Below, piece by piece: positions 1 through 14,019 of a stretch of DNA of 16,415 nucleotides. The stretch lies in assembly GCA_039802265.1 (NCBI GenBank), contig JBDRWI010000049.1, forward strand, positions 1 to 16,415, given 5' to 3'. Numbering within the stretch: position 1 is the first letter of the stretch; every line of letters starts with the position of its first letter. The translations under genes and the position numbers were made by a program. The stretch is from a candidate division WOR-3 bacterium. GTDB lineage: Bacteria; Hydrothermota; Tepidihabitantia; SM23-42; JAOAFX01. Below the pieces are notes generated by a model, which was given only the letters and a program-made list of their open reading frames with translations, was not told the DNA's origin and ran no database searches.

Positions 1-127
1 CTTATTCTGGTTTGGCAACTGCGATAAACAATACTGGCACGACTTCTGATACGGTTAGAATTTATGTGACGGTGAATCCATATTATGATTTGGATATCGC
101 TGACAATGAGCAGAGTTTATTTGGTAA
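1..127 (+). repeat. Exact 127-bp direct repeat, second copy at 1639-1765
   Basis: Base-by-base match at offset 1638; first mismatch 128 C vs 1766 T. May extend upstream of the window. Confidence 0.9.
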
Positions 128-3100
128 CAAGCTGAGGCTTGCGGCACCGATGGGTGATTCGACTCAGGTTGGTTATTTCCGGGTGATTAATCCGAACACA
201 GCTGAACTTAATGTTGATCCGGACATTTATGGTAATGCTGATTTTGATAGTATTAAGGTTCAGGTGAGTAATTTGAATTATGTGCCGGTTCCGGGTTCAG
301 ATATTAGTTATGTGATTCCGGCGGGTAATGTGCATATTGTTCCGATTCCTGGTTTATTGAGCGGTGAGTCATTTGATGCTTATGTGCGGGTGTATGTGCC
401 GTTTGATGTTTATGCTGGTACATATCGTGGGACAGTGACGGTGACTGGATATCCGACAACGCCGGGAACAACGACTGATGAGTTTACATTAGAGGTAGTG
501 GTTGGTGCGGTTGATGACATTGATATTACCGAGGCGTCAGTATCAGCTACTGGTGGAATGTTTTCTACAGTATCATTACCGCCATTTACAGTCTGGTCGA
601 CTGATGCGGCAAATAACCCGGATGCTTATGACGGACCGGGTAATACGACGCTTTATGGAGTGAACTTTACCGCCACTGATTTATATGGACCATATTCAGC
701 AATAGTAATTCCAGCATCAAATATTTCGTTTGAGCCATATTTAATTGACTCGATTGCTCCTGGCACATCAGTTTCTGTAATTGCAAAAGTTTATATTCCT
801 CATGGCATATATGCAGGAACTTACTCTGGTCTCGTGACTGCTAGTAACAATAGTGGAACAACTTCTGACACGATTCGGATAAATGTCACGGTAACGCCAA
901 TTTATGATTTAGATATAGCTGACAATCAGGCAAATCTCTTTGCCAATACAATGCATTTAGCTGGTCCAATGGGAGAAACACGAAGTGGTTCCTTCAAAAT
1001 GGTTAACCCCGCTAATGATGGGCAGAACGTTGACCCGGATTTATACGGCAATGCTGACTTTACTGGCTTTACTGCAACAGTTGATACCCTTTGGTATATA
1101 CCTGGTGGTGCTGAGGACATTAACTACTTTATTCCGCCATCAGCAGTTAGTTTTATTTTACCGACGGGGCTTGATTGGGGAGAAGTATTTAATGCGACTG
1201 TCACAGTTAATATTCCATATAATACATATTCTGGAGTATACCGAGGATTAGTAACAGTCACTGGTACTCCGGGTAGTCCCGGTAGCCCGACCGATCGGTT
1301 TATATTAGAGGTTTCGGTGGGTCCTTTAGATGACATTGATATTGCTGAGGCGTCAGTGAGTGCGACAACTGATCATGGGACATCGGTTTGGACCGCGCCG
1401 TTTACGGTTTGGTCTACTGATGATGATGACCCGTCACATAATCCGGATGCTTATGACGGACCTGGTAATACAACGCTTTATGGTATTACTTTCTTAGCTC
1501 AAGATTTAAGAGCCGGTGACTTAATAATTCCAGCTGCAAATATTGAATTTAGCCCAAGCACAATTGACTCGCTTGCGCCAGGGCATTCGGTTGAGGTGCG
1601 GGCAAGAGTCAATGTGCCGTATGGCACTTATGCGACGACTTATTCTGGTTTGGCAACTGCGATAAACAATACTGGCACGACTTCTGATACGGTTAGAATT
1701 TATGTGACGGTGAATCCATATTATGATTTGGATATCGCTGACAATGAGCAGAGTTTATTTGGTAATAAGATGCGGCTTGCTGGGCCGATGGCGTCGCCGA
1801 CGCAGACCGGTTATTTCCGGATGATTAATCCTAATACATCTGCGCTTAATGTTGATCCCGACCAATATGGTAATGCTGACTTTACTGGTTTTGATTTGTA
1901 TGTGAGCGATTTGAATTATGTGCCGGTTCCGGGTTCAGATATCAGTTATGTAATTCCGTCATCAGCGGTGGTTGTGACTTTACCGACTGGTCTTTTGAGT
2001 GGTGAATCTTATAATGCGAGTGTAGTTGTAAATATTCCGCCGGATGTTTATGCTGGAACTTATCGTGGTATTGTCAGAGTTACTGGTTTACCGGGGATTC
2101 CGGGCACACCGACTGATGAGTTTACATTAGAGGTAGTGGTTGGCGCAGTTGATGATATTGATATTACCGAAGCATCGGTATCTGGGACAGGTAATCATGG
2201 CACTACGGTAAATACTGGCTATTTTACGGTTTGGTCAACTGATGCGGCGCATAATCCGGATACTTATGATGGGCCAGGGAATACGACTTTGTATGGTATT
2301 ACTTTTATTGCTCAGGATTTAAGGGCCGGTGATTTGGTAATCCCAGCAGCTAATGTTTCATTTGAGCCGATAACGATTGAAAGTTTACCGCCTGGTCAAT
2401 CAAGAGAGGTTAGGGCGTTAGTGAATGTGCCTTACGGCACTTATGCAACAACTTATTCTGGTTTGGCAATGGCAATCAATAACACCGGCACAACTTCTGA
2501 TACGGTGAGAATCTACATTACTGTTTTACCGAGTTACGATTTGGATATTTCTGACAATACCGGCAACTTGATTGAGAACCAGATGAGATTAACCGTAACA
2601 CCGCTTCCTGGAGTTTCATACGACTCAGCGTACTTTGTTTTAATCAACCCGAATAATCCTGATTTAAATGTGGATCCGGATCCCTTTGGCAATTATGATT
2701 TAGCGAATATCTACTGGTCAATTGGCGATTTAAATCACATTACCGACCCGTTGGCTTATATTCCAAAAGAAAGCGTTGATGTCTATATGACTACGCCACA
2801 TTTCTTAGCATCAGGTGGGTCTGAGGATATTGTGGTGAAAGTGAATGTTCCGGAATTTCAAGTGGCTGGCGAGTATAAGTCGTGGTTAATTGTTTATGAT
2901 GAAGATGCGGATGTTGCCGATTCGTTTGAGCTAAAAGTGATAGTTAATCCGCTTGAAGACATTGATATTATTGAAAATCAGATTGTCAACACTGTAAATA
3001 CTGGTGACACTTTAGTTTATATTGGCGAATTTACGGTTCTTAACCAAGATAAAGAACAATGGCTTTCAGGTTATGGTGATCCGGACTTTCCATCAAACAT

Positions 3101-6100
3101 TGACTTAAATAATTTGAGGTTTACTTGTGAAAACTTAAGAGAGATTGGACCAACTGGCCGATTTATTCCGGCAGAAAATGTGTTTGTCGAAGTAGTTGGT
3201 TCATCAGCAGGTCCATCGCCGTATGGGACGGCTAATATTTCCGAGCTTGCTTTAGGTCAAACGCAAAATATTAAGATATGGGCGCTCATTCCACGCGGCA
3301 CATATGCGACTTCATACCGTGGTGAAATGCGAGTAATAGATGATGATGGTATTCCATCAGATGTTATTGCAATCCAGATTAATGTTAACGCTTATTATGA
3401 CTTAGACATTGCAGATAATGAGCAGAGTTTATTTGGCAATAAGATGCGGCTTGCTGGGCCGATGGCATCGCCCACACAAACTGGTTATTTCCGGATGATT
3501 AATCCTAATACTTCAGCACTCAATGTTGATCCGGATGTTTATGGTAATGCTGACTTTACTGGCTTTAATTTGTATGTAAGCAATTTGAATTATGTGCCGG
3601 TTCCGGGTTCAGATATTAGTTATGTAATTCCGTCATCAGCGGTGGTGGTTACTTTACCAACCGGTCTTTTAAGCGGCGAATCTTATAATGCCAGTGTAGT
3701 TGTAAATATTCCGCCGGATGTTTATGCTGGGACTTATCGTGGTATTGTTAGGGTTACCGGTTTACCAGGAATACCAGGGACACCAACCGATGAGTTTGTT
3801 TTAGAGGTTGTAGTTGGTGCGGTTGATGATATTGATATTACCGAAGCATCGGTATCTGGGACAGGTAATCATGGCACGACGGTAAATACTGGCTATTTTA
3901 CGGTTTGGTCAACTGATGCGGCGCATAATCCGGACGCTTATGATGGTCCGGGCAATACGACTTTATATGGTATTACATTTACAAGTCAGGATTTGCGGTT
4001 TGGTAATTTTGTGATACCTGGAGCGAATGTTTCGTTTGAGCCGGTCACGATCGAAAGCTTGCCACCGGGTCAGTCACGACAGGTCAGGGCTTTAGTTAAT
4101 GTGCCTTATGGAGTGCATAATGGAACCTATTCAGGTTTAGCAATGGCAATTAACAATACCGGCACTACATCTGATACGGTGAGAATTTATGTAACGGTCA
4201 ATCCTTATTATGATTTAGATATTGCGGATAATCAACAGAGCTTAATTGAAAATAAGATGACGCTTTCAGGCCCGATGGGTGCAATAAGGCAAGGCACATT
4301 TAGAATGGTTAATCCGAACACGCCAGAGCTTAATGTTGACCCAGACCAATTCGGTAATGCTGACTTTACAGGCTTTACTTACTCAGTTGATACGTTAAAA
4401 TATATACCATTTGGTAATGAAGAGATATTATATCGCATTCCACCATCAGCAGTGAGCGTTAGTTTGCCGAGCGGACTCGTATCTGGTGCTTCCTATGACG
4501 CTCAGGTGACGGTTAATATTCCTATGAACACTTTTGCTGGTGTCTATCGCGGCAAGATTCGAGTCACTGGAACACCGACTTTAAATACCCCGACCGATTC
4601 ATTCTGGTTAGAGGTAGTAATTGGGCCATACGATGACATTGACATCGATTCAGCGGCAGTGCATGCAACAACCAATCAAGGTACAACGGTCAACACCACA
4701 TCATTCAGGGTGTATTCAACCGATGCCGCAGTCAATCCAGATCCGGACGGTCCAGGTAATACAACGCTCTATGGTGTGACATTCAGCTGTACAGATTTGC
4801 GAAATGGCAATCTGTATATCCCAGCAGAAAATGTCCAGTTTGTACCGACTATTATTGACTCAATCCGACCAGCTGAGTCGTATGCGGTCTATGCACGAGT
4901 TAATGTGCCATACGGAACTTATGCTACAACTTACTCAGGTATTGCCACTGCTACTAACAATACAGGCACAACATCGGATACGGTCAGAATTTATGTCACA
5001 GTTAATCCTTACTATGACTTGGATATTGCCGATAACCAGCAGAATCTCATCGGCAACAAACTAATTTTATCCGGACCAATGGGCGCAGTAAGACAGGGCA
5101 GATTCAGAATAATTAATCCCAATTCAGCCGAACTTAATGTTGACCCAGATCAGTATGGCAACGCTGACTTTACATCGCTGAGTGCAGTAGTTGAGACTCT
5201 AAAGTACATGCCTTTTGGCAATGAGGATATTCTGTATTACATCCCACCGTCAGCAGTGACTATTAGTTTACCGAGCGGGCTGGCATCAGGCGCATTCTTT
5301 GATGCTAATGCGACCGTCAATATTCCGATGAACACCTTTAGCGGTACCTATCGTGGAAAGGTGAGAATTACCGGCACGCCTGGAACTCCTGGCACGCCAT
5401 CTGACACGTTTATTCTTGAAGTCTTTGTCGGTCCGTTTGACGATTTGGATATCAGAGAATCATCAGTTAGTGCAACAACTAATCACGGTACAATTGTCAA
5501 CACATCGACTTTCCGTGTCTATTCAACTGATGCAGCACACAACCCAGACCCAGATGGGCCAGGTAATACCACGCTATATGGCGTGACCTTTAGCGCGACT
5601 GACTTAAGATTCGGTAACCATGCTATTCCGGCTGCGAACATTCAGTTTGTGCCAGTTACAGTGGACTCAATCAGACCCGGTGATTCAGTGTTTGTTTATG
5701 CTCGAGTCACTGTGCCGTATGGTACGCATAACGGTCTATACACAGGACTTGCAACCGCTTACAATAATCCAGCTACGACATCAGATACGGTGCGCATTAA
5801 TGTAACAGTAAATGCCTATTATGACTTGGATATTGCCGATAATCAGCAGAATCTAACATCTAACAAGATGACGCTTGCTGGACCAATGGGTGCGACGCGT
5901 TATGGATATTTCCGAATGGTCAATCCCAATACACCAGAACTCAACATTGACCCGGATATGTATGGTAATGCCGACTTCACCAGCTTTACCTATACGGTTG
6001 ACACTTTGCGTTATGTGCCGATGGGTGGTGAAGAGATACTCACTTATATACCGCCATCAGCAGTAACGTTAACGCTACCGAGTGATGGGCTCGTTTCGGG

Positions 6101-7685
6101 TGGGATGTATGATGCTCGAGTGCAAGTGGTAATTCCAATGAATACTCTGACTGGAACATATCGTGGTCAGGTTACAGTTACCGGCAATCCGTCAGAACCT
6201 GGAACACCGACCGACCACTTCATATTAGAAGTTGTAGTTGGAGCATTAGAAGATCTTGACATTGCAGAAGCATCTGTCTCGGCTTCAGGTAATCAAGGAG
6301 CGATTGTTACTACTACGAATTTCACAGTTTGGTCAACTGATGCTGCCGAAGGGCATAATCCTGATAGTTATGATGGACCGGGCAATACAACCTTATATGG
6401 TATTAATTTCATCGTCAGTGATTTGACCCTTGGCAATCGAACAATTCCTGCTGCCAATGTTCAATTCGTGCCGCCGACAATTGCCGAATTATATCCTGGA
6501 ACATCAGCCACAGTGAGAGCGATAATTACTATTCCATATGGTACCTATAACGGCACATATACGGGATTAGTGACTGCTCAAAATAATACCGGTTCGGTTT
6601 GGGATACAGTTCGAATCTATCTGACAGTCAATTCGGCATATGACCTGGACATTGCAGACAATTTACAAGGACTTGTGGAAAACAAAATGACATTGAGATT
6701 GATTCCGAATTTAACGCAATCATCGCAGTTCTTGCTTATCAATCCTGACCGATCAGAAAACAACTATGACCCGGATCCGTATGGCAATGCTGATTTAACA
6801 AATCTGCGGTACCATGTTTCTGAGATTTTATATTCCCATGATGGCTACACGCTTGATGGTTCGGAAATCATCTTCAGCAACAATCCTGAGAATCTTGGTT
6901 GGGGTCAGTCAGTGTCGGTAAATGTTATCGCAACTGTCAAACCGACTCAACATTACGCAACCTATTATGGTACCGTAACAGTTTCAAAACCGATCGGCGA
7001 GATTGATTCAATCTATGATTCATTCACTCTTGAAGTAGTAGTTGGACCACGAGAGATGTTTATGATGCCGGATACAATTGTCGTTATTGGCAATGCCGGT
7101 GAATTTGCTGATACAGTCTTCTATGTCAAAAACATTGGAAATAAGACGATTGACCGGATTGAACTCTTCCCAATGACCGACTTCTATTCAGCCGGTGGTA
7201 TCAGAATACCAATGAAGACTATCGAATTTACACCACCGATTATTGTTGATTCAATAAAAGTTGGCGAATCGACCGAAGTTACACTCAGAGTAGATATTCC
7301 ACGTGGTATGCTACCAGGTCATTATATCGCCAAAGCCAAAGCAATGCAACAGCGCGGTGACCCAGCATTTAACTTTATTATTCTGCTCAATGTTCGATAT
7401 CGCCCAGATATTTCCGAAGAGATTATCTTCTCAGATAATCCAGTGACCGGTAGTTATGTTGATATTGGAGTTTATGGTTCAGAACCGAGACTGACGATAA
7501 TGAATATGGCGGCTGAGATTGTGTTGACGGTGCCAACTGAAGAAATCAAAGACGGCGTCTATCGTTGGAATTTAGTAAATGCAAAAGGAAAATCGGTTGC
7601 CCCAGGATTATATGTTGTGATTCTGCAGTCAAAGATTGACGAAAAAGATAAGGTCTTTACTAAAAAGCTACTAATCGTAAAATAA
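3..7685 (+). CDS. Giant repetitive surface protein/adhesin (5'-partial, >2560 aa): alternating A/B Ig-like (NEW3-like) domains plus T9SS-like CTD
   Basis: Frame is open from position 3 (YSG-LATAINN...). TTG at 12 lies mid-repeat (same peptide at 1641-1765), so the true start is upstream of the window. ~270-aa AB period with motifs YDLDIADN, DPDxYGNADF, DDIDI, DGPGNTTLYG, PxxxYxxxYxG. Stop TAA at 7683-7685. Confidence 0.9.
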   Translation, partial: YSGLATAINNTGTTSDTVRIYVTVNPYYDLDIADNEQSLFGNKLRLAAPMGDSTQVGYFRVINPNTAELNVDPDIYGNADFDSIKVQVSNLNYVPVPGSDISYVIPAGNVHIVPIPGLLSGESFDAYVRVYVPFDVYAGTYRGTVTVTGYPTTPGTTTDEFTLEVVVGAVDDIDITEASVSATGGMFSTVSLPPFTVWSTDAANNPDAYDGPGNTTLYGVNFTATDLYGPYSAIVIPASNISFEPYLIDSIAPGTSVSVIAKVYIPHGIYAGTYSGLVTASNNSGTTSDTIRINVTVTPIYDLDIADNQANLFANTMHLAGPMGETRSGSFKMVNPANDGQNVDPDLYGNADFTGFTATVDTLWYIPGGAEDINYFIPPSAVSFILPTGLDWGEVFNATVTVNIPYNTYSGVYRGLVTVTGTPGSPGSPTDRFILEVSVGPLDDIDIAEASVSATTDHGTSVWTAPFTVWSTDDDDPSHNPDAYDGPGNTTLYGITFLAQDLRAGDLIIPAANIEFSPSTIDSLAPGHSVEVRARVNVPYGTYATTYSGLATAINNTGTTSDTVRIYVTVNPYYDLDIADNEQSLFGNKMRLAGPMASPTQTGYFRMINPNTSALNVDPDQYGNADFTGFDLYVSDLNYVPVPGSDISYVIPSSAVVVTLPTGLLSGESYNASVVVNIPPDVYAGTYRGIVRVTGLPGIPGTPTDEFTLEVVVGAVDDIDITEASVSGTGNHGTTVNTGYFTVWSTDAAHNPDTYDGPGNTTLYGITFIAQDLRAGDLVIPAANVSFEPITIESLPPGQSREVRALVNVPYGTYATTYSGLAMAINNTGTTSDTVRIYITVLPSYDLDISDNTGNLIENQMRLTVTPLPGVSYDSAYFVLINPNNPDLNVDPDPFGNYDLANIYWSIGDLNHITDPLAYIPKESVDVYMTTPHFLASGGSEDIVVKVNVPEFQVAGEYKSWLIVYDEDADVADSFELKVIVNPLEDIDIIENQIVNTVNTGDTLVYIGEFTVLNQDKEQWLSGYGDPDFPSNIDLNNLRFTCENLREIGPTGRFIPAENVFVEVVGSSAGPSPYGTANISELALGQTQNIKIWALIPRGTYATSYRGEMRVIDDDGIPSDVIAIQINVNAYYDLDIADNEQSLFGNKMRLAGPMASPTQTGYFRMINPNTSALNVDPDVYGNADFTGFNLYVSNLNYVPVPGSDISYVIPSSAVVVTLPTGLLSGESYNASVVVNIPPDVYAGTYRGIVRVTGLPGIPGTPTDEFVLEVVVGAVDDIDITEASVSGTGNHGTTVNTGYFTVWSTDAAHNPDAYDGPGNTTLYGITFTSQDLRFGNFVIPGANVSFEPVTIESLPPGQSRQVRALVNVPYGVHNGTYSGLAMAINNTGTTSDTVRIYVTVNPYYDLDIADNQQSLIENKMTLSGPMGAIRQGTFRMVNPNTPELNVDPDQFGNADFTGFTYSVDTLKYIPFGNEEILYRIPPSAVSVSLPSGLVSGASYDAQVTVNIPMNTFAGVYRGKIRVTGTPTLNTPTDSFWLEVVIGPYDDIDIDSAAVHATTNQGTTVNTTSFRVYSTDAAVNPDPDGPGNTTLYGVTFSCTDLRNGNLYIPAENVQFVPTIIDSIRPAESYAVYARVNVPYGTYATTYSGIATATNNTGTTSDTVRIYVTVNPYYDLDIADNQQNLIGNKLILSGPMGAVRQGRFRIINPNSAELNVDPDQYGNADFTSLSAVVETLKYMPFGNEDILYYIPPSAVTISLPSGLASGAFFDANATVNIPMNTFSGTYRGKVRITGTPGTPGTPSDTFILEVFVGPFDDLDIRESSVSATTNHGTIVNTSTFRVYSTDAAHNPDPDGPGNTTLYGVTFSATDLRFGNHAIPAANIQFVPVTVDSIRPGDSVFVYARVTVPYGTHNGLYTGLATAYNNPATTSDTVRINVTVNAYYDLDIADNQQNLTSNKMTLAGPMGATRYGYFRMVNPNTPELNIDPDMYGNADFTSFTYTVDTLRYVPMGGEEILTYIPPSAVTLTLPSDGLVSGGMYDARVQVVIPMNTLTGTYRGQVTVTGNPSEPGTPTDHFILEVVVGALEDLDIAEASVSASGNQGAIVTTTNFTVWSTDAAEGHNPDSYDGPGNTTLYGINFIVSDLTLGNRTIPAANVQFVPPTIAELYPGTSATVRAIITIPYGTYNGTYTGLVTAQNNTGSVWDTVRIYLTVNSAYDLDIADNLQGLVENKMTLRLIPNLTQSSQFLLINPDRSENNYDPDPYGNADLTNLRYHVSEILYSHDGYTLDGSEIIFSNNPENLGWGQSVSVNVIATVKPTQHYATYYGTVTVSKPIGEIDSIYDSFTLEVVVGPREMFMMPDTIVVIGNAGEFADTVFYVKNIGNKTIDRIELFPMTDFYSAGGIRIPMKTIEFTPPIIVDSIKVGESTEVTLRVDIPRGMLPGHYIAKAKAMQQRGDPAFNFIILLNVRYRPDISEEIIFSDNPVTGSYVDIGVYGSEPRLTIMNMAAEIVLTVPTEEIKDGVYRWNLVNAKGKSVAPGLYVVILQSKIDEKDKVFTKKLLIVK
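81..7049 (+). repeat. Tandem domain array: 9 A domains alternating with 8 complete B domains
   Basis: A domains start at ~81, 903, 1719, 2535, 3393, 4206, 5010, 5817, 6639. B domains start at ~513, 1329, 2151, 2955, 3825, 4632, 5439, 6249. A partial B domain lies at <3-80. Confidence 0.9.
1719..4205 (+). repeat. Near-identical AB unit duplication (1719-2534 vs 3393-4205)
   Basis: Offset 1674. Proteins are almost identical and 2151-2260 vs 3825-3934 differ at one base by eye; most differences are synonymous. Confidence 0.88.
7416..7682 (+). other. Atypical T9SS-like C-terminal sorting domain of the giant protein
   Basis: IFSDNP...LTIMNMAAEIV...WNLVNAKGKSVAPGLYVV...TKKLLIVK: has the W-x-L-x-N-x2-G-x2-VAxGxY and terminal KxxIxK pattern, but SDNP replaces YPNP. 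Confidence 0.7.
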
Positions 7686-7692
7686 GAAAAAA

Positions 7693-7757
7693 TGCCACGG
7701 AGGCACAGAATGTCCAGAGAAAAACATAAAAGAATCTGGTTCTGTGCCTCCTGGGCA
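7693..7757 (+). promoter_or_regulatory. Intergenic RNA stem-loop without a U-tract
   Basis: GGAGGCACAGAA (7699-7710) / TTCTGTGCCTCC (7740-7751) is a perfect 12-bp stem; inner CCAGA/TCTGG (7714-7718/7735-7739); outer TGCC/GGCA; A-rich loop. Confidence 0.75.
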
Positions 7758-7766
7758 AACCCTTTT

Positions 7767-7771
7767 GGAGG
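7767..7771 (+). promoter_or_regulatory. Shine-Dalgarno GGAGG for ATG 7776
   Basis: TTTTGGAGGAAAA-ATG, followed by a signal-peptide-like sequence. Confidence 0.8.
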
Positions 7772-7775
7772 AAAA

Positions 7776-9206
7776 ATGAAAAGTATTAGCATATATCTTT
7801 TGGTATCGATTTTATGCATTACTGGCGGATATGCAATTTCCAATAGAGCGGGTGAAGCATTGGTATCGCCGTTTGAGATTTCAATTACTGCTCGGCAAAC
7901 AGGTGTCGGCGAAGCGTTCACGGCTTATTACGACTGTAACTCTTTTCTCTACAACCCGGCAAGTTTGGCGATGCTTGAATACGAGTTTATTTCTGCAACC
8001 CATAATCGTTGGATTGTGGGTTCATCGCAGTCGTATTTAGGAGCGGGGCTACCTTTTAACTGGGGATTTCTCTCGTTAGGTTTAATCTATTTTAAACAAG
8101 GTGAAATCGACCTTTACAATAACTGGGTCAATCAACTTGAGCGTAAATCAGTTTATGACCTTGGCTGTATTTTTGGCTATGGTGGCAACTTTCATCGTTA
8201 TCTTTCAGCTGGTATCAACGCCAAAGTGTTATATCATGATTGGGCAGACTATACGATGGCTGGTTTTGCGTTTGATGTCGGTGCTATTTGCCCCAATGTC
8301 AAATTGCCTTATGATATCGGCAACCTTAATGCTGGTCTTGTTATCCAAAATATCGGACCAAAAGAACGGTTAAGGTATGTCGGTTTTAATCAACCGTTAA
8401 CCCCAAAACTGGGCATCGCGGTTGAGTTTCCAGAAGTATCAATCTTTAACTTTAACTTTTTAGCTGATGCGTCGTATCCGATATATGATGCAAACTTCCG
8501 CGCTAATTTTGGACTTGAAATTTGGGCCTGGAAACAACTGGCATTACGAGCTGGCTATCGACTTGGTTATGATATTAGCAAAGCAAATCTAACTTTTGGT
8601 GCTGGGTTAAAATATAAGTCATTCAATTTTGACTATGGGTTGGTTGATTATGATTATGTTGGTTTAACTCATCGATTTACCGTGTGTATGCGTTTAAATG
8701 AAATGAAACCGGTTGGACCATTTAGAGTGCTTGATAGAAAAATTGATGGTTTAACAGATAAAGTTGATGCCCTTAAAGGAGACGTTACTGATTTAAAATT
8801 ATCGGTTGACCAAGTTAAAGATTTAATAAAGACATCATTAAAGACCGCGGTTGATTTATTCTACATTCGCCATTTCCTAAATGTCCATTTCCCGTTTGAC
8901 TCTTATGAAATTACCAAGTCAGAATATTGGAAAATTGATGAGGCGGTTCGATTAATTAAAACTTATTATGCTGACCAGGTGATTATTCTTGAAGGACATA
9001 CCGATGTTGCCGGCAGCGATCCTTACAATCAGGTTTTGTCAGAACGACGAGCACAAGCAGTCAAGGATTATATGGTCAGCAAAGGTATTCCGGCTGAGCG
9101 AATTGAAATTCGAGCCAAGGGTGAGACTGAGCCGATAAATTATGAGACCGGACCGGGCGTTCGCGGAAGGGAAAATAGGAGAGTTGTATTTGTGGTATCT
9201 GAGTAA
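7776..9206 (+). CDS. PorV/PorQ-family outer-membrane beta-barrel fused to a coiled coil and an OmpA-like peptidoglycan-binding domain (476 aa)
   Basis: Signal peptide MKSISIYLLVSILCITGGYA. ARQTGVGEAF...YNPASLA matches the FadL-like/PorV/UPF0164 N-terminal motif; amphipathic strands (FAFDVG, QNIG, LALRAGY, FDYG, THRF). Heptad region 8724-8843. OmpA-C motifs HFPFDS, EGHTD...YNQVLSERRAQAV, GETEP, NRRV at 8880-9203. Confidence 0.85.
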   Translation: MKSISIYLLVSILCITGGYAISNRAGEALVSPFEISITARQTGVGEAFTAYYDCNSFLYNPASLAMLEYEFISATHNRWIVGSSQSYLGAGLPFNWGFLSLGLIYFKQGEIDLYNNWVNQLERKSVYDLGCIFGYGGNFHRYLSAGINAKVLYHDWADYTMAGFAFDVGAICPNVKLPYDIGNLNAGLVIQNIGPKERLRYVGFNQPLTPKLGIAVEFPEVSIFNFNFLADASYPIYDANFRANFGLEIWAWKQLALRAGYRLGYDISKANLTFGAGLKYKSFNFDYGLVDYDYVGLTHRFTVCMRLNEMKPVGPFRVLDRKIDGLTDKVDALKGDVTDLKLSVDQVKDLIKTSLKTAVDLFYIRHFLNVHFPFDSYEITKSEYWKIDEAVRLIKTYYADQVIILEGHTDVAGSDPYNQVLSERRAQAVKDYMVSKGIPAERIEIRAKGETEPINYETGPGVRGRENRRVVFVVSE

Positions 9207-9339: not shown

Positions 9340-9345
9340 AAGGAG
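9340..9345 (+). promoter_or_regulatory. Shine-Dalgarno AAGGAG for ATG 9352
   Basis: AAGGAG-ttaact-ATG, 6-nt spacer. Confidence 0.8.
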
Positions 9346-9351
9346 TTAACT

Positions 9352-12300
9352 ATGTGTAATAAAAAATATGTTGCCTTACTTATTCTTGTGGTTTTTGTGC
9401 TACCGCTGGTTGCTGATGTGCTTCTGGATGAAAACTTCGATTTGGTGACTGTTCCTAATATGCCGACAGGCTGGGTAGTGATTGATAACAATAGCGATGG
9501 CAAGACTTGGACAACAACCACTTCTCATCCCCGCTCTATCCCGAATTGTATCAGATATAATTACAGCACATTGAATACGGCTAATGACTGGTTTTATACC
9601 AGTGGTTTGGCGTTACAATCCGGAATAACTTATACCTTGGAGTTTTATTACCGAGGTTCAAATCCGTTCTTTACTGAAAAGTTAAAGGTTTATTATGACA
9701 ATGACCAATCAGTCGGTGGCGGAACACAGATTCTCGATTTACCCAATATCACTAATACCATTTACCAACAGGCATTGGTTGATTTTACCGTGCCAAGTTC
9801 GGGCACTTATTATCTTGGTTTTCAGTGTTATTCAGCGGCTAATCAGTGGAATCTGCGGATTGATGATATTAAGGTCTATAAGCAAGTGCACGATGTTGGT
9901 GTAGATTCCATTCTCGAACCCGACCCGATTACCTATAATGTCTCAACACCAATTACTCCGGAAGTGCGGGTGAGAAATTATGGTCAGAACACCGGTGGCG
10001 AAGTTAATGTCAAGGTTTACGGAATGATTTTGTGGTATGGCAATGATTCTACCCGCACAACAACGCCGACTGTGGTTTACTTTGATTCAGTATTATTGCC
10101 GAGACTTGAAATCTGTTCACCGGAAATTGTGCAGTTTACACCATGGCAACCGATTGCGTGTTATTCACGATTTGTTGCCTGGACTGCGCTGGCTAATGAT
10201 ATTGACCGAAGCAACGATACTTCAAAGGTTGATTTTGCAGTTGACTTCCGCGATGTTGCGGTAAAAAGTATTGTTATTCCCCAAGACACTGTGCTATGGT
10301 GCACCGAATCAATTCCGACCGATACAGTTGTCAATTATGGTCATAGAACCGAATCATTCTGGGTTTTCTTTAAGTCTTTGAATAATCTATCGCAAGTTGA
10401 ATATTTAGATTCGGTTTATATTGTCGATTTGGCAGCTGGTGCGAAGCAAGTGGTTATGTTTAAGCCCTGGCACTTTCCAGTCTGTAATCATACTGCAATT
10501 TCCTGGACTAAATTGAGTGGTGACGAAAATCCGCATAATGATACAGTAGTAAAGCCTTACGTGGTTAAAAAGTATGACTTTGAAGTCATTAGCGTGTATA
10601 ACATTCCAGATACCGCGCAGGTCTGCAACTGGTATATGCCAAAGATGATTATCCATAATAATGGCGCACATACTGGACCACAATCAGCAATTGCCCATAT
10701 GAATATCTATCGTAATAACGTATTAATTAGCCAGTTCACTGCTCCGACCAGGTTATTAAATCCTTGCGAAAATGATACGATTAGTTTTGAATGGCATGCT
10801 GAATCGGCGTGTAGTCATACTATCAAAGCCTGGGTTGAGTTGGCTGGAGACCAGAACCACGCTAATGACACTGTCTGGAAGAATTTTGTCGTGAAATATT
10901 ATGATGCCGAAGTAGTTGCGATTCTCAATGTGCCTGATACGGTCACGGTTTGCAATAATGTGACTGCTAAAGTTGTTGTCCATAATAATGGTGTGCATAT
11001 CGGACCGCAACTGTGCTGGGTGTATTTTAAGCTTTATCGCGGTGTCGATAATGGTGAAATTGACTGGACATTGATTAAACAGGATTCGATGCAAATGACC
11101 TTAACCCCATGTGTCTATGATACTGCGTTCTTTACCTTTCATGCCGATAGTGCCTGCTGGCATAGAATTTTTGCAAAGGTTAAATGTCCACTTGACCAAA
11201 ATCCCCACAATGACTCAATCTACAAAGACTTTGTGATTAGATATTATGACTGGGAATTAATTGGACCAATTACTGGTTTGCCAGATACAATGAAGGTTTG
11301 TAACTTGTATTATCCAACAGTCAATGTCCACAATAATAGCAAACACACCTATCCTGAATCAGCACGGGTCTTTATGAAAGTTTATCGTAATGGGCAGTTG
11401 TTGCCGATGTTTAGTTTTGTTGAGGTCTATTTAGCACCTTGTCAGACCATCCCGGTTCAGTTTGAATGGCATGCTGACTCGGCTTGCACTCACGAATTTG
11501 TGTTCTATGTCGAACCCTATATTGCCGGTCATGATGCTAATCCGAATAACGATACCTTGAAAAAGACAACTGTTGTCCAGTGGTTTGATGTCGGTGTCGT
11601 TTCAATTGGCGGTATTCCAGATACGGTGCAGTACTGCAATGATATTACTCCAACTGTAACGCTTCACAACTACGGCATCCATACCGGCCCAGTCAATTGC
11701 ACACTGAATGTTGTCATTTATCGTAACCAGAATCTGATACCGGTCTTTAGCACGACAATACCAGTAAATGACTTAAGACCTTGCGTTGACAGCGTAATTA
11801 CACTTGACCCATATCATCCTGATACCTGCTTCCACCGAATTGTTGCAACAGTGAATTTTGCGTCTGATCAGAATTCGACTAATAACTCAAAAGAAGACAC
11901 GTTTGTGGTTAGATATTTTGATGTTGAAGCGGTTTCAATTGAAAATCTACCAGACACGGTTGACTACTGCAGCACAATCAATCCGAAGATTGTCGTGCAT
12001 AATAACGGAGTGCATGTGCCATCACAATCGGGGTGGGTGATTTATGAGGTCCAGCGTTCGCACGATATGATTAACTATTATCCAGTATATGTTGACTCGC
12101 AACCGAAGACTCTTGAGTATTGCGTGATGGATACAGTTGAATTCAGCTATCATCCAGATTCGGCTTGCTATCACAAAGTTGTTGCAACGGTCAGATTCAA
12201 TCCTGACCAGAATCCGAGTAATAATATGGTTTCAAAAGACTTTGTCGTGCGCCTGTATGACTTTGAGATTGTAGATGTTATTGGTGTGCCTGATACTATT

Positions 12301-14019
12301 GAACAGTGCAATTACTTTGATGTAAAGGTCAAGATACATAATAATGGCGTCCATACCGGACCGCAACCTTCGACAATCTATCTTCAAGTCTATCGTGAAG
12401 GCATGCCAATCGGAGTACCGCTACAACAATCAATGCCGAACTTAGAACCGTGTGAAATAGATTCGTTCACATTTACTATCCATGCCGAGCAATATTGTAA
12501 TCACACAATTAAAACCTGGGTTTCAGCACCAATTGACCAAAATCCAATAAATGACACAGTATGGAAGAACTATGTTGTATCATATCACGATGTCGGTGTT
12601 GTTGCGATTTCAGTGCCAGATACGATTGATTACTGCACATTTATTTCGCCAGCAATCACGATTCATAATTTTGGTATCCATACTGGCTCTGTAAATGGCG
12701 AGCTTAATGTCACCATCTATCGTCGTTATGGCAGTGAACCAGAAGTTGTTGAAACAACCTATGTGGTCAATGTTGAAAATCTAAGACCATGCGTTGATTC
12801 AATAATTACTTTGATACCATACCATCCTGATACCTGCTTCCACCGAATTGTTGCCACCGTAAACTTTACCCCTGACCAGGTTTCAGCAAATAATACTATG
12901 GAAGATACATTTATCGTTAGATATCGTGATGTTGCAGTCGGTAATATCTGGTTTGACCCAAGTCTACCCGGTGATACGGTAATTACTTGTAACGATGTTA
13001 CGCCCAAGGTTGAGGTTTATAATAATGGTTCTCATGTTGGACCAGTGCCGTGCACTGTTAGAATGCGCATCTGGCGTTATGAAATTAAACTTGATAGCTT
13101 GTGTTCAATCTCGCCAGATACCTTAAAACCAATTGTGCTCTACGATACCTTTGTCGTGGTAGTGCTTAATCCTGGCCTGAATATTGTTGATATGCCGCAA
13201 ATCCACTTCTACTGGTATAATATCTTCTGGGTTGGTGACCATCATCGTGTTGAAGTAACGGTCAGCTCACCTGGCGACCAGAATCCAACCAATAACTACA
13301 ACTGGAAGAAATTCATTGTTAAAGGTTCGAATAATGATTTACAGGTTAGTTATGTCGGCTTACTCAAGAATAGCATCCAGGTTATTCCTGATGGTGAATC
13401 ACTAAAGGTTGGCTATGCCTACAACCCAATTGCCGTTGTGGCTAATACTTCGCCAACCGCTTCGTTTAGAAGTTATTACAAGATTGTTCGCGAACGTGAT
13501 GGAAATATTGTCTTCTCGCGTTACTTAGACAAGACCTTACTACCATGGACATATGCTTGTCTGTATTATCAATCAGGCTGGGTGCCAACTGATACCGGTT
13601 GGTATACTGTGACTTGTTGGCTCGGATTCAGACCAGGTGTTGATGTTAATCCAGTTAATAATTCAATGAGCAAGCGCTACTATGTTAAATCTCCACATGC
13701 AAGTGACAAAGCAATTCAGGCCGAAGAAGTCGCAACACCAAAGGTCTTTGCAATGCATCAGAACTATCCGAACCCATTTAATAATCTAACTCATATCAAA
13801 TGGCAGATTCCAGTTGATGCCCATGTAACACTTTCAGTCTATGATGCTTCTGGTCGAGTTGTGAAGACATTGGTTAATGAGAAACGAGCAGCTGGTTATT
13901 ATAGCACAATCTGGGATTGCACCGATGAGCACAATCGTAAAGTCTCCGCGGGTATCTATTTCTATGAGATGAAGGCGGGCGAATTTAGTCAACGCTATAA
14001 GATGGTAATCACGCGTTAA
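9352..14019 (+). CDS. T9SS type A cargo (1555 aa): cleaved-adhesin/choice-of-anchor-J-like domain, 11 Cys/His-rich CARDB-like repeats, type A CTD
   Basis: Signal peptide MCNKKYVALLILVVFVLPLVA. ENFD...PTGWVVIDNNSDGKTW...NDWFYT...YYLGFQ...IDDIKV (9415-9880) resembles gingipain cleaved-adhesin domains. Repeats read DVxV...NxG...LxP...DxNxxND. CTD FAMHQNYPNPFN...VYDASGRVV...WD...VSAGIYFY...KMVITR at ~13735-14016. Confidence 0.9.
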   Translation: MCNKKYVALLILVVFVLPLVADVLLDENFDLVTVPNMPTGWVVIDNNSDGKTWTTTTSHPRSIPNCIRYNYSTLNTANDWFYTSGLALQSGITYTLEFYYRGSNPFFTEKLKVYYDNDQSVGGGTQILDLPNITNTIYQQALVDFTVPSSGTYYLGFQCYSAANQWNLRIDDIKVYKQVHDVGVDSILEPDPITYNVSTPITPEVRVRNYGQNTGGEVNVKVYGMILWYGNDSTRTTTPTVVYFDSVLLPRLEICSPEIVQFTPWQPIACYSRFVAWTALANDIDRSNDTSKVDFAVDFRDVAVKSIVIPQDTVLWCTESIPTDTVVNYGHRTESFWVFFKSLNNLSQVEYLDSVYIVDLAAGAKQVVMFKPWHFPVCNHTAISWTKLSGDENPHNDTVVKPYVVKKYDFEVISVYNIPDTAQVCNWYMPKMIIHNNGAHTGPQSAIAHMNIYRNNVLISQFTAPTRLLNPCENDTISFEWHAESACSHTIKAWVELAGDQNHANDTVWKNFVVKYYDAEVVAILNVPDTVTVCNNVTAKVVVHNNGVHIGPQLCWVYFKLYRGVDNGEIDWTLIKQDSMQMTLTPCVYDTAFFTFHADSACWHRIFAKVKCPLDQNPHNDSIYKDFVIRYYDWELIGPITGLPDTMKVCNLYYPTVNVHNNSKHTYPESARVFMKVYRNGQLLPMFSFVEVYLAPCQTIPVQFEWHADSACTHEFVFYVEPYIAGHDANPNNDTLKKTTVVQWFDVGVVSIGGIPDTVQYCNDITPTVTLHNYGIHTGPVNCTLNVVIYRNQNLIPVFSTTIPVNDLRPCVDSVITLDPYHPDTCFHRIVATVNFASDQNSTNNSKEDTFVVRYFDVEAVSIENLPDTVDYCSTINPKIVVHNNGVHVPSQSGWVIYEVQRSHDMINYYPVYVDSQPKTLEYCVMDTVEFSYHPDSACYHKVVATVRFNPDQNPSNNMVSKDFVVRLYDFEIVDVIGVPDTIEQCNYFDVKVKIHNNGVHTGPQPSTIYLQVYREGMPIGVPLQQSMPNLEPCEIDSFTFTIHAEQYCNHTIKTWVSAPIDQNPINDTVWKNYVVSYHDVGVVAISVPDTIDYCTFISPAITIHNFGIHTGSVNGELNVTIYRRYGSEPEVVETTYVVNVENLRPCVDSIITLIPYHPDTCFHRIVATVNFTPDQVSANNTMEDTFIVRYRDVAVGNIWFDPSLPGDTVITCNDVTPKVEVYNNGSHVGPVPCTVRMRIWRYEIKLDSLCSISPDTLKPIVLYDTFVVVVLNPGLNIVDMPQIHFYWYNIFWVGDHHRVEVTVSSPGDQNPTNNYNWKKFIVKGSNNDLQVSYVGLLKNSIQVIPDGESLKVGYAYNPIAVVANTSPTASFRSYYKIVRERDGNIVFSRYLDKTLLPWTYACLYYQSGWVPTDTGWYTVTCWLGFRPGVDVNPVNNSMSKRYYVKSPHASDKAIQAEEVATPKVFAMHQNYPNPFNNLTHIKWQIPVDAHVTLSVYDASGRVVKTLVNEKRAAGYYSTIWDCTDEHNRKVSAGIYFYEMKAGEFSQRYKMVITR
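9889..13692 (+). repeat. Eleven tandem ~110-135-aa CARDB-like domains
   Basis: Each begins (H/R/Y/F/N)D-hydrophobic and ends with a DxNxxN(D/N)-like motif plus a final strand; R3-R9 (10573-12924) are the most uniform. Confidence 0.85.

What the first reader, a model, noticed from the sequence alone, without database searches (positions are those of the whole stretch)
10573..12924. CARDB-like repeats with three turn glycines replaced by Cys and four conserved His: possible metal- or disulfide-stapled rod
Seen: R3-R9 all carry PDTxxxC, HNx(G/S)xH, Lx(P/Y)C and H-x3-4-C-x-H, i.e. 3 invariant Cys and 4 His per domain (about 37 Cys in the protein versus 2 seen in the giant neighbour). The ordinary CARDB in gene 4 has Gly at the same three positions (VVNVG 15581, LAPG 15701, WTAVPGWY 15746). 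R2 and R10 lose the first His and the LxPC Cys together (VNYG/LAAG, YNNG/LNPG); R1 is an exception (RNYG/LEIC). Inference: an odd Cys count on loops at both domain ends suggests inter-domain Zn/Cu/Fe sites or disulfides that rigidify the stalk, or an extracellular metal-binding or redox array. I do not know this variant as described.
Basis: partly seen in the sequence, partly recalled or inferred. Interest (0 to 1): 0.75.

Follow-up and report, generated by a model that had tools for sequence, protein, structure and literature searches.

The report
Surface rod studded with Cys-His pairs
An uncultured WOR-3 bacterium encodes a likely surface rod of Ig-like repeats in which three turn glycines per repeat became cysteines; each cysteine is gained and lost together with one particular histidine, not with another cysteine, so the pairs likely bind metal ions rather than form disulfides.

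Summary
All seven repeats R3-R9 carry 3 Cys and 4 His at the stated sites. None of 699 ordinary CARDB-like relatives has two such Cys.

The protein (9352-14019) has a choice-of-anchor J tip, 11 CARDB-fold repeats and a type IX secretion signal. Its family is small (4 of 271 phylum genomes) and sits in a conserved operon.

New here: in 109 non-redundant family repeats each Cys travels with its own His. C1-H3 is perfect (84 both, 25 neither). C2-H1 is nearly so (61/8/3/37). C3 probably pairs with H2 of the next repeat. Cys does not track Cys, and no DsbA, DsbB, VKOR or cytochrome c assembly gene was found in four host genomes. This argues against disulfide staples and against one cluster per junction.

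The two clear pairs lie inside a repeat, at mirror-image ends of strands B and E. Best reading: up to three two-ligand soft-metal (Zn/Cu) half-sites per repeat that clasp the rod or zip it to a partner (about 0.5). Rivals: His-activated thiols, or covalent Cys-His cross-links. Metal binding and distances are untested.

The parts
9340..9345 (+). Shine-Dalgarno-like AAGGAG before the ATG at 9352
9352..14019 (+). Gene for the 1555-aa Cys/His rod: likely signal peptide, choice-of-anchor J domain, 11 CARDB-fold repeats, T9SS type A sorting domain
   Evidence: signal peptide judged from the sequence only
9421..9876 (+). Choice-of-anchor J domain (aa 24-175), likely the distal adhesive tip
   Evidence: NF038128 59.3 bits, cut-off 30; adhesive role inferred
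9889..10248 (+). R1: C2 (10114) and C3 (10159); no C1/H3, no H1, no H2
10249..10572 (+). R2: C1 (10300)/H3 (10471), C3 (10483), shifted H2 (10342); site 2 is Gly
10573..10899 (+). R3, full set: C1 10624, H1 10654, H2 10669, C2 10765, H3 10795, C3 10810, H4 10816
10900..11244 (+). R4, full set: C1 10951, H1 10981, H2 10996, C2 11110, H3 11140, C3 11155, H4 11161; two extra Cys
11245..11583 (+). R5, full set: C1 11299, H1 11329, H2 11344, C2 11440, H3 11470, C3 11485, H4 11491
11584..11916 (+). R6, full set: C1 11635, H1 11665, H2 11680, C2 11782, H3 11815, C3 11827, H4 11833
11917..12255 (+). R7, full set: C1 11968, H1 11998, H2 12013, C2 12121, H3 12151, C3 12166, H4 12172
12256..12585 (+). 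R8, full set: C1 12307, H1 12337, H2 12352, C2 12451, H3 12481, C3 12496, H4 12502
12586..12924 (+). R9, full set: C1 12634, H1 12664, H2 12679, C2 12790, H3 12823, C3 12835, H4 12841
12925..13707 (+). R10-R11 base module: R10 keeps C1 (12988)/H3 (13204) and H2 (13033), lacks C2/H1 and C3; R11 lacks all three site Cys; further conserved Cys at 13051, 13102 and 13558
13765..14010 (+). T9SS type A C-terminal sorting domain (aa 1472-1553)
   Evidence: TIGR04183 32.2 bits, cut-off 23; PF18962 and PF13860 over cut-off
3..7685 (+). Upstream giant Asp/Thr-rich repeat protein (5' end open, 2 Cys); conserved operon partner
7692..9206 (+). PorV/PorQ-family barrel fused to an OmpA peptidoglycan-binding domain; conserved operon partner
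   Evidence: NF033709 133.7 bits, cut-off 90; PF00691 77 bits
14078..16414 (+). Downstream gene (3' end open): one Gly-type CARDB repeat (15530-15835) and a paralogue of the R10-R11 module that keeps C1/H3

Best explanation
The gene encodes a likely T9SS-exported surface rod whose CARDB-fold repeats each carry up to three separately evolving Cys-His pairs, and each pair likely supplies two ligands for a soft metal ion (Zn2+, or Cu+/Fe2+). Shown: the fold, the sorting signal, the pairing of C1 with H3 and of C2 with H1, and the lack of Cys-Cys coupling. Inferred from the model's strand pattern: C1-H3 and C2-H1 sit at the two ends of the antiparallel B/E strand pair, on the same outer face, each Cys in the turn two residues before its His's cross-strand partner. 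Inferred from the array ends: C3 pairs with H2 of the next repeat across the junction. Predicted: metal binding repays the strain of putting Cys where Gly is normal, clasps strands B and E and stiffens the junctions. The open coordination positions would be filled by solvent or by the same pair on a second rod, giving an inter-chain Cys2His2 zipper. The result would be a stiff stalk of about 40 nm (domain length recalled) that holds the choice-of-anchor J tip away from a cell in which no disulfide-forming enzymes were found.
For: C1-H3: 84 both, 0, 0, 25 neither among 109 non-redundant repeats; each changes 12 times on a tree built without those columns (also 12 and 12). C2-H1: 61/8/3/37, and all 8 lone C2 are first repeats; interior repeats 52/0/1/12. 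An unbiased mutual-information scan of 73 interior repeats ranks C18-H75 and H28-C65 first and second (z 8.4, 6.3). Both pairs have the same residue sum (93), and the model's bridges 20-21/74-75 and strands 24-29/67-71 imply register 95, so both have one geometry. Where Cys is absent the site holds a turn residue (site 1: G 13, N 6 of 25; site 2: G 28 of 40) and the His position scatters over 12 and 10 other residue types. C3(n)-H2(n+1): 95/0/2/10 in 107 adjacent pairs; H2 is in 73 of 73 and C3 in 71 of 73 interior repeats. No DsbA-like, DsbB, VKOR or CcmF/CcsA match in 4 of 4 host genomes. Cys plus His as a soft-metal ligand set is established knowledge (recalled).
Against: No metal binding was measured, and the folding tool returned no coordinates, so S-N distances are unknown. 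No third or fourth ligand covaries with either pair, so a four-coordinate site needs a partner chain or solvent. The tree is weakly supported: only 3 independent pairs lie on well-supported branches (sign test p=0.25; 12 on all branches). The C3-H2 link rests mostly on the two array ends, close to one evolutionary event, and 2 repeats with Ser at C3 keep H2 in the next repeat. Outside the family, 18 of 22 domains with a site-1 Cys lack H3 (they include TA06 proteins), so this Cys can exist without the His. One paralogue lineage keeps H3 after C1 became Gly. H4 tracks C2 in the same repeat (67/2/26/14) although they lie at opposite ends of the fold; this is unexplained and may be shared ancestry. 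The genomes are 89-95% complete, G163 has a DsbD/CcdA-type gene, and the window's contig may not belong to G000.
Confidence: 0.5

Rival explanations
1. Each His activates its Cys as a thiolate-imidazolium pair. The rod would be an array of about 25 reactive thiols used for covalent capture (quinones, polysulfide, acyl or sugar groups), as an oxidant sink, or for enzyme-free disulfides to the same Cys of a neighbouring rod.
For: Strict 1:1 pairing with no further ligand. Each pair is gained and lost on its own. Cys never stands without His at sites 1 and 2 of interior repeats, while His sometimes stays without Cys. No Dsb oxidase found.
Against: No oxyanion-hole or acceptor residue covaries. 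Exposed dyads on a structural stalk have no precedent that I found.
Confidence: 0.2
2. Each pair forms a covalent Cys-His thioether cross-link, as in tyrosinases and haemocyanins (recalled). It would staple strands B and E at both ends and one repeat to the next, a counterpart of isopeptide and ester bonds in adhesin stalks.
For: A two-residue bond explains perfect 1:1 coupling, independence of the sites and the lack of a third partner. Stalk domains of the same Ig clan use isopeptide cross-links for stability (PMC12617251, passages). The window's sequence occurs in hot-spring metagenomes.
Against: Known Cys-His links form oxidatively at a dicopper centre (recalled); no such centre or partner enzyme lies in the operon. 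Lone site-1 Cys exist outside the family.
Confidence: 0.13
3. All loop Cys and His of a junction (C1, H3, C3, H4 of one repeat; C2, H1, H2 of the next) build one multi-ligand or multinuclear site.
For: 40 of 75 interior junctions hold the full 3 Cys + 4 His. H4(n)-C2(n+1) shows a weak link (p=0.02). Both.
Against: C1(n) and C2(n+1) are independent (p=0.71). 35 of 75 junctions are incomplete and 3 hold a single Cys. The strong couplings are inside one repeat.
Confidence: 0.07
4. The Cys form fixed intra- or inter-domain disulfides within one chain.
For: Extracellular Ig domains often hold disulfides (PMC8416519, passage). 21 of 93 repeats have C2+C3 and 23 have C1+C3, which are even counts.
Against: 40 of 93 repeats break any fixed pairing by having all three Cys (38) or only C3 or other single sets, and no Cys-Cys pair covaries in interior repeats (C1-C3 51/2/12/0, C2-C3 50/2/13/0). 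It does not explain the His. No Dsb oxidase was found.
Confidence: 0.05
5. Each Cys anchors a haem or an Fe-S unit with the His as ligand, making a protein wire for extracellular electron transfer.
For: About one pair per 37 residues, spaced along a rod; almost every repeat keeps at least one of the two B/E pairs (1 of 109 lacks both).
Against: No CxxCH motif in this protein (the one 9-motif ORF in the genome is a low-complexity frame). No CcmF/CcsA in 4 of 4 genomes. The sites are on an exposed sheet face. In interior repeats alone the at-least-one rule is not significant (p=0.10).
Confidence: 0.05

Closest known systems
CARDB domain (PF07705; PDB 3IDU, PF1109 of Pyrococcus furiosus)
   Same: Same fold: top match among 48,161 chains, Z 13.2, rmsd 1.7 over 100 residues, 21% identity. 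The D..V start, N-x-G and D-x-N-x-x-N motifs are kept. 7 of 8 close homologues carry a precomputed PF07705 hit.
   Different: Three turn Gly are replaced by Cys with partner His. The window's repeats score under the Pfam cut-off (best 13.3 bits against 22.7). 3IDU's title mentions di-metal ions; I did not see its ligands.
Ordinary WOR-3/TA06 T9SS proteins with CARDB-like stalks
   Same: Same repeat type, T9SS sorting domain and tandem layout.
   Different: Gly at the three sites; at most one Cys there (25 of 699 domains), mostly without the His. 422 of 696 have instead a single Cys in strand F.
Staphylococcal Aap/SasG B-repeat (G5-E) zinc-dependent self-association
   Same: Works-like model: a long repeat stalk whose repeats join a second chain in a zinc-dependent way (PMC9802226, start of abstract and passages).
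   Different: Different fold, Gram-positive sortase anchoring, His/acidic rather than Cys-His ligands (recalled), antiparallel pairing between cells. Self-association of this protein is untested.
Self-cross-linking adhesin stalk domains (isopeptide CnaA/CnaB/CLIPPER-DUF11, ester, thioester)
   Same: Tandem Ig-like stalk domains stabilised by side-chain links; DUF11 is in the same E-set clan (PMC12617251, passages).
   Different: Those use Lys-Asn/Asp, Thr-Gln or Cys-Gln. CARDB is not mentioned in that paper's main text (0 hits). Here the coupled residues are Cys and His, up to three pairs per domain.
T9SS cargo with its own PorP/PorV-like barrel and PorE peptidoglycan tether
   Same: A large cargo gene next to a PorV-family barrel with an OmpA domain recalls the PorE-PorP-PG1035 complex (PMC9143113, abstract).
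   Different: Here barrel and OmpA domain are one protein. Which cargo it holds is unknown; the Cys/His rod has a type A signal.

Membership tests
CARDB (PF07705) | Pfam HMM score above the gathering cut-off | tested here: not met
   R3 12.8 and R8 13.3 bits, 9 other repeats no hit, cut-off 22.7; whole protein no hit. Filed as CARDB-like only.
CARDB (PF07705) | Seven-strand Ig-like fold matching a solved CARDB | tested here: met
   AF2 pLDDT 91.9; 3IDU top match, Z 13.2, rmsd 1.7, 100 aligned
CARDB (PF07705) | Gly at the three turn positions | tested here: not met
   Cys at all three in 7 of 7 repeats; Gly dominant in 699 relatives
T9SS type A cargo | C-terminal sorting domain above cut-off | tested here: met
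   TIGR04183 32.2 against 23; PF18962 27.3 against 27
T9SS type A cargo | N-terminal Sec signal peptide | tested here: inconclusive
   Basic then hydrophobic N-terminus seen in the sequence and homologues; no predictor run
T9SS type A cargo | T9SS machinery in the host | tested here: inconclusive
   PorV-family gene adjacent. Long PorU-like matches in G163, G166 and (in pieces) G165, none over the cut-off; only partial matches in G000
Cys2His2 or other four-ligand intra-chain metal site | All ligands are gained and lost together | tested here: not met
   Pairs vary independently within a repeat and across junctions
Disulfide-stapled Ig stalk | Cys-Cys covariation | tested here: not met
Disulfide-stapled Ig stalk | Periplasmic oxidase system in the host | tested here: inconclusive
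   DsbA-like, DsbB and VKOR not found in 4 of 4 genomes, 89-95% complete; DsbD/CcdA in 1 of 4
Multihaem c-type cytochrome | CxxCH motifs | tested here: not met
   The protein is not among the ORFs with CxxCH
Aap/SasG zinc-dependent stalk | G5-E repeat fold | tested here: not met
   The fold is a CARDB-like beta-sandwich; no G5 Pfam hit
Aap/SasG zinc-dependent stalk | Zinc-dependent self-association | not testable with these tools
Isopeptide/ester/thioester stalk domains | Reactive residue pair and catalytic acid in 3D proximity | not tested
   No coordinates were returned for the model

The most novel reading that the evidence does not exclude
The Cys-His pairs are a new kind of self-forming staple for bacterial surface proteins: either a direct Cys-His covalent cross-link, or a two-coordinate metal bridge, repeated about 25 times along one rod, gained and lost as two-residue modules on a plain Ig scaffold, and standing in for disulfides in cells without Dsb enzymes.
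Probability: 0.2. Interest if true: 0.9.

Novelty: new variant of a known kind. Interest (0 to 1): 0.62.

Why it matters
The scaffold is ordinary; the chemistry on it is not. I found no description of an Ig stalk with three modular Cys-His pairs per domain (searches; most subscription papers are outside that library). Each pair is a two-residue change from Gly plus any residue on a small, well-folding domain. That makes the mechanism easy to test, and if it is a metal clasp or cross-link it could be grafted onto other Ig domains. It would also show how surface proteins are stiffened or glued together without disulfide enzymes, in a phylum with almost no characterised proteins. The family is narrow (4 of 271 phylum genomes), which limits its general reach.

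Tried and rejected
Recoding of TGY to Gly, or a G-to-T artefact: rejected.

Sequence search of the PDB with the repeat profile: nothing below E 0.2. Foldseek gave only generic multi-Ig matches. ESM Atlas gave unnamed or CARDB clusters and no structure.

The search for related loci failed with the single-repeat alignment.

A mirror rule for antiparallel zipping (C2 pattern equals reversed C1 pattern) was checked by eye: 9 of 11 in P0004, 4 of 9 in P0006, 4 of 8 in P0008. Not supported.

A rule that each junction needs C1(n) or C2(n+1): 3 of 75 lack both, as chance predicts.

The complex prediction (two copies of R3-R4 with Zn) was not available, so dimer formation is untested. No RNA holder was listed. 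Earlier scan notes held nothing on this protein.

Rows dropped before counts: L016 (near copy of P0002), 6 partial repeats and 8 Gly-type last repeats, repeats under 100 aa, 11 Gly-type last repeats and 12 repeats at 90% identity or more, P0169, P0037 (a family member) and domains under 70 matched columns. Only the best 150 of 1347 hits were available for the non-family comparison.
Full report
OBSERVATION. The finding lies in a 1555-aa ORF (9352-14019, +) with 37 Cys and 49 His. It splits into 11 repeats of 108-136 aa, 15-67% identical to each other. R3-R9 each carry C1 (DTxxxC), H1 and H2 (HNxGxH), C2 (LxPC), H3, C3 and H4 (HxxxxCxH); coordinates are. Among 699 CARDB-like domains from 152 other proteins (the best 150 of 1347 hits plus the weaker hits), the sites are Gly in 429 of 644, 498 of 699 and 565 of 694; none has two Cys there. 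The Cys are real: both codons are used, homologues keep them, other assemblies cover the gene, and TGY serves known Cys motifs.

WHAT THE PROTEIN IS. It has a choice-of-anchor J domain at the N-terminus and a T9SS type A sorting domain at the C-terminus, both over cut-off. AlphaFold2 on R3-R5 with 35 sequences gave pLDDT 91.9, pTM 0.64 and three seven-strand domains. The best structural match among 48,161 chains is the CARDB domain 3IDU (Z 13.2, rmsd 1.7). The repeats score below Pfam's CARDB cut-off, so I call them CARDB-like. Eight close homologues (E 2e-109 or better) are followed by a gap to 4e-22; two more fragments came. The named ones are candidate division WOR-3. The family was found in 4 of 271 genomes of the phylum: G000 and three of another family, f12. 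The order giant repeat protein, PorV/OmpA fusion, Cys/His rod recurs wherever the contig reaches upstream (L016, L018, L019, L021, L032, L033; L020 reaches only the fusion). A paralogous secreted protein follows in L016, L017 and L033. The window's own sequence is held by hot-spring metagenomes of two studies.

HOST CAVEAT. Contig C49 is the outlier of G000 in tetranucleotide content (r 0.73, median 0.98, 75 contigs) and in synonymous codon use (r 0.65, median 0.93, 71 contigs; other T9SS-like genes 0.99). None of 14 other genomes of its family has the gene. Long PorU-like matches occur in the three f12 genomes but not in G000. So the contig may be mis-binned, recently acquired, or biased by high expression; the G166 operon also departs from six neighbouring housekeeping genes (r 0.63). 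The G166 copy lies on a 326-kb contig beside MurA- and IspG-like genes, which secures the family's place in this phylum.

THE KEY RESULT: WHO PAIRS WITH WHOM. I scored the seven sites in 132 repeats from 15 family proteins and kept 109 non-redundant ones. Counts are both / first only / second only / neither. C1-H3: 84/0/0/25. C2-H1: 61/8/3/37, with all 8 lone C2 in first repeats. C1-C2: 45/39/24/1. C1-C3: 72/12/24/1. C2-C3: 67/2/29/11, where the 'neither' class is mostly the terminal R10 type; in interior repeats it is 50/2/13/0. C3-H4: 80/16/13/0. On a tree made without these columns C1 and H3 each change 12 times, C2 and H1 9 times, H4 7, C3 3, H2 once. Only 3 independent pairs fall on well-supported branches, too few for significance (p 0.25). 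A mutual-information scan over all columns of 73 interior repeats put C18-H75 and H28-C65 on top and found no third ligand. Across junctions, C1(n) and C2(n+1) are independent (49/16/7/3), while C3(n)-H2(n+1) is 95/0/2/10: R1 has C3 but no H2, R10 has H2 but no C3. That last link rests on the array ends and is the weakest of the three. Where a Cys is absent the site holds Gly, Asn or Asp in most cases, so the turn conformation likely persists and Cys is kept there at a cost (inference).

GEOMETRY (inferred, no coordinates). The model has bridges at 20-21 and 74-75 and strands at 24-29 and 67-71, which implies an antiparallel B/E register of i+j=95. H75 then faces residue 20 and H28 faces residue 67; each Cys (18, 65) lies two residues before that partner, in the turn, on the same outer face. 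The two pairs are mirror images at the two ends of one strand pair. C80 precedes strand F at the C-terminal end of the domain, where the BC loop (H2) of the next repeat would pack. H4 is the corner residue: His in 160 of 699 ordinary relatives and Trp or Tyr in some family repeats, so it is probably structural. Its link to C2 (67/2/26/14) is unexplained.

MECHANISM. Independent one-Cys-one-His units fit neither disulfides nor one cluster per junction. No DsbA-like, DsbB, VKOR or CcmF/CcsA gene was found in the four host genomes (89-95% complete; controls rang), and one has a DsbD/CcdA-type gene. I commit to soft-metal half-sites (0.5): two clasp strands B and E, one likely bridges the junction, and the remaining positions are filled by solvent or by the same pair on a second rod. 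A parallel self-pairing would allow each site to come and go alone, as seen. Rivals are His-activated thiols (0.2), covalent Cys-His cross-links (0.13), a junction cluster (0.07), intra-chain disulfides (0.05) and a haem or Fe-S wire (0.05).

COMPARISON. It is a CARDB-like T9SS stalk by fold and signal, not a Pfam CARDB member by score. It may work like the zinc-dependent Aap B-repeat rope (PMC9802226: start of abstract and three passages) or like self-cross-linked stalk domains (PMC12617251: passages; CARDB not mentioned in the main text), but it belongs to neither family. PMC8416519 (passages) places CARDB in the E-set Ig clan and mentions conserved Cys in an archaeal Ig domain, with no His pairing in the passages seen. 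PMC9143113 (abstract and outline) gives the PorE-PorP-cargo parallel for the neighbouring fusion. Other papers were seen only as search listings. No supplements were read; those of PMC12617251 might list CARDB-like domains. Searches found no description of this variant. The tyrosinase Cys-His link, Aap ligand types, the O-glycosylation motif and domain length are recalled, not from a call.

VERDICT. A real, conserved and apparently undescribed variant of a common stalk domain. Novelty: new variant of a known kind. Interest 0.62.

Noticed in passing
window:12925-13707 and window:15839-16414; paralogues in L016, L033: The R10-R11 base module is shared by two paralogous families. The Cys at 13102 is in 25 of 25 copies and the Cys at 13558 in 24 of 24 that reach it; the Cys at 13051 is in 24 of 25. 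The first two may form a true inter-domain link at the base of the rod.
   Followed up: partly
window:7692-9206: A PorV/PorQ-family barrel, a coiled-coil-like linker and an OmpA peptidoglycan-binding domain in one protein, conserved between the giant gene and the rod gene. It looks like a fused PorP-PorE-type surface tether.
   Followed up: partly
window:3-7685: A giant protein (over 2560 aa, 2 Cys) of alternating repeats with acidic DxDIxD and NPDxDGPGN motifs, possibly calcium-binding. Its C-terminal domain matches T9SS signals only weakly (TIGR04183 13.2 bits, PorZ CTD 20.8).
   Followed up: no
window:10573-12924 and T9SS-like proteins of G000: The motif D-[ST]-[AILVMT] occurs 20 times in R3-R9 against 2.7 in shuffles, and at 0.98 per 100 aa in 130 T9SS-like proteins against 0.32 shuffled. 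It matches the Bacteroidota O-glycosylation motif (recalled), suggesting heavy glycosylation in WOR-3.
   Followed up: partly
G000 contig C49 (whole window): The contig is the composition and codon-usage outlier of its genome bin, and G000 lacks the long PorU-like match seen in the other three hosts. It may be mis-binned or recently acquired.
   Followed up: partly
proteins P0069, P0150, P0153, P0132 (site 1); P0097, P0106, P0107, P0125, P0131, P0138, P0151 (site 3): Single Gly-to-Cys changes at the same turn sites recur in other CARDB-like arrays, including TA06 proteins, mostly without the partner His. They may be precursors or a separate use of these sites.
   Followed up: partly
non-family CARDB-like domains, strand F: 422 of 696 ordinary relatives (121 proteins) carry one Cys in strand F with no equally common second Cys column; the Cys/His family lacks it.
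   Followed up: no
window about 10617 and 11256, run X1: One contig joins R5-like letters to R3 (table 5c), and homologues differ in repeat number (about 9-14) and order, which points to ongoing repeat shuffling.
   Followed up: no
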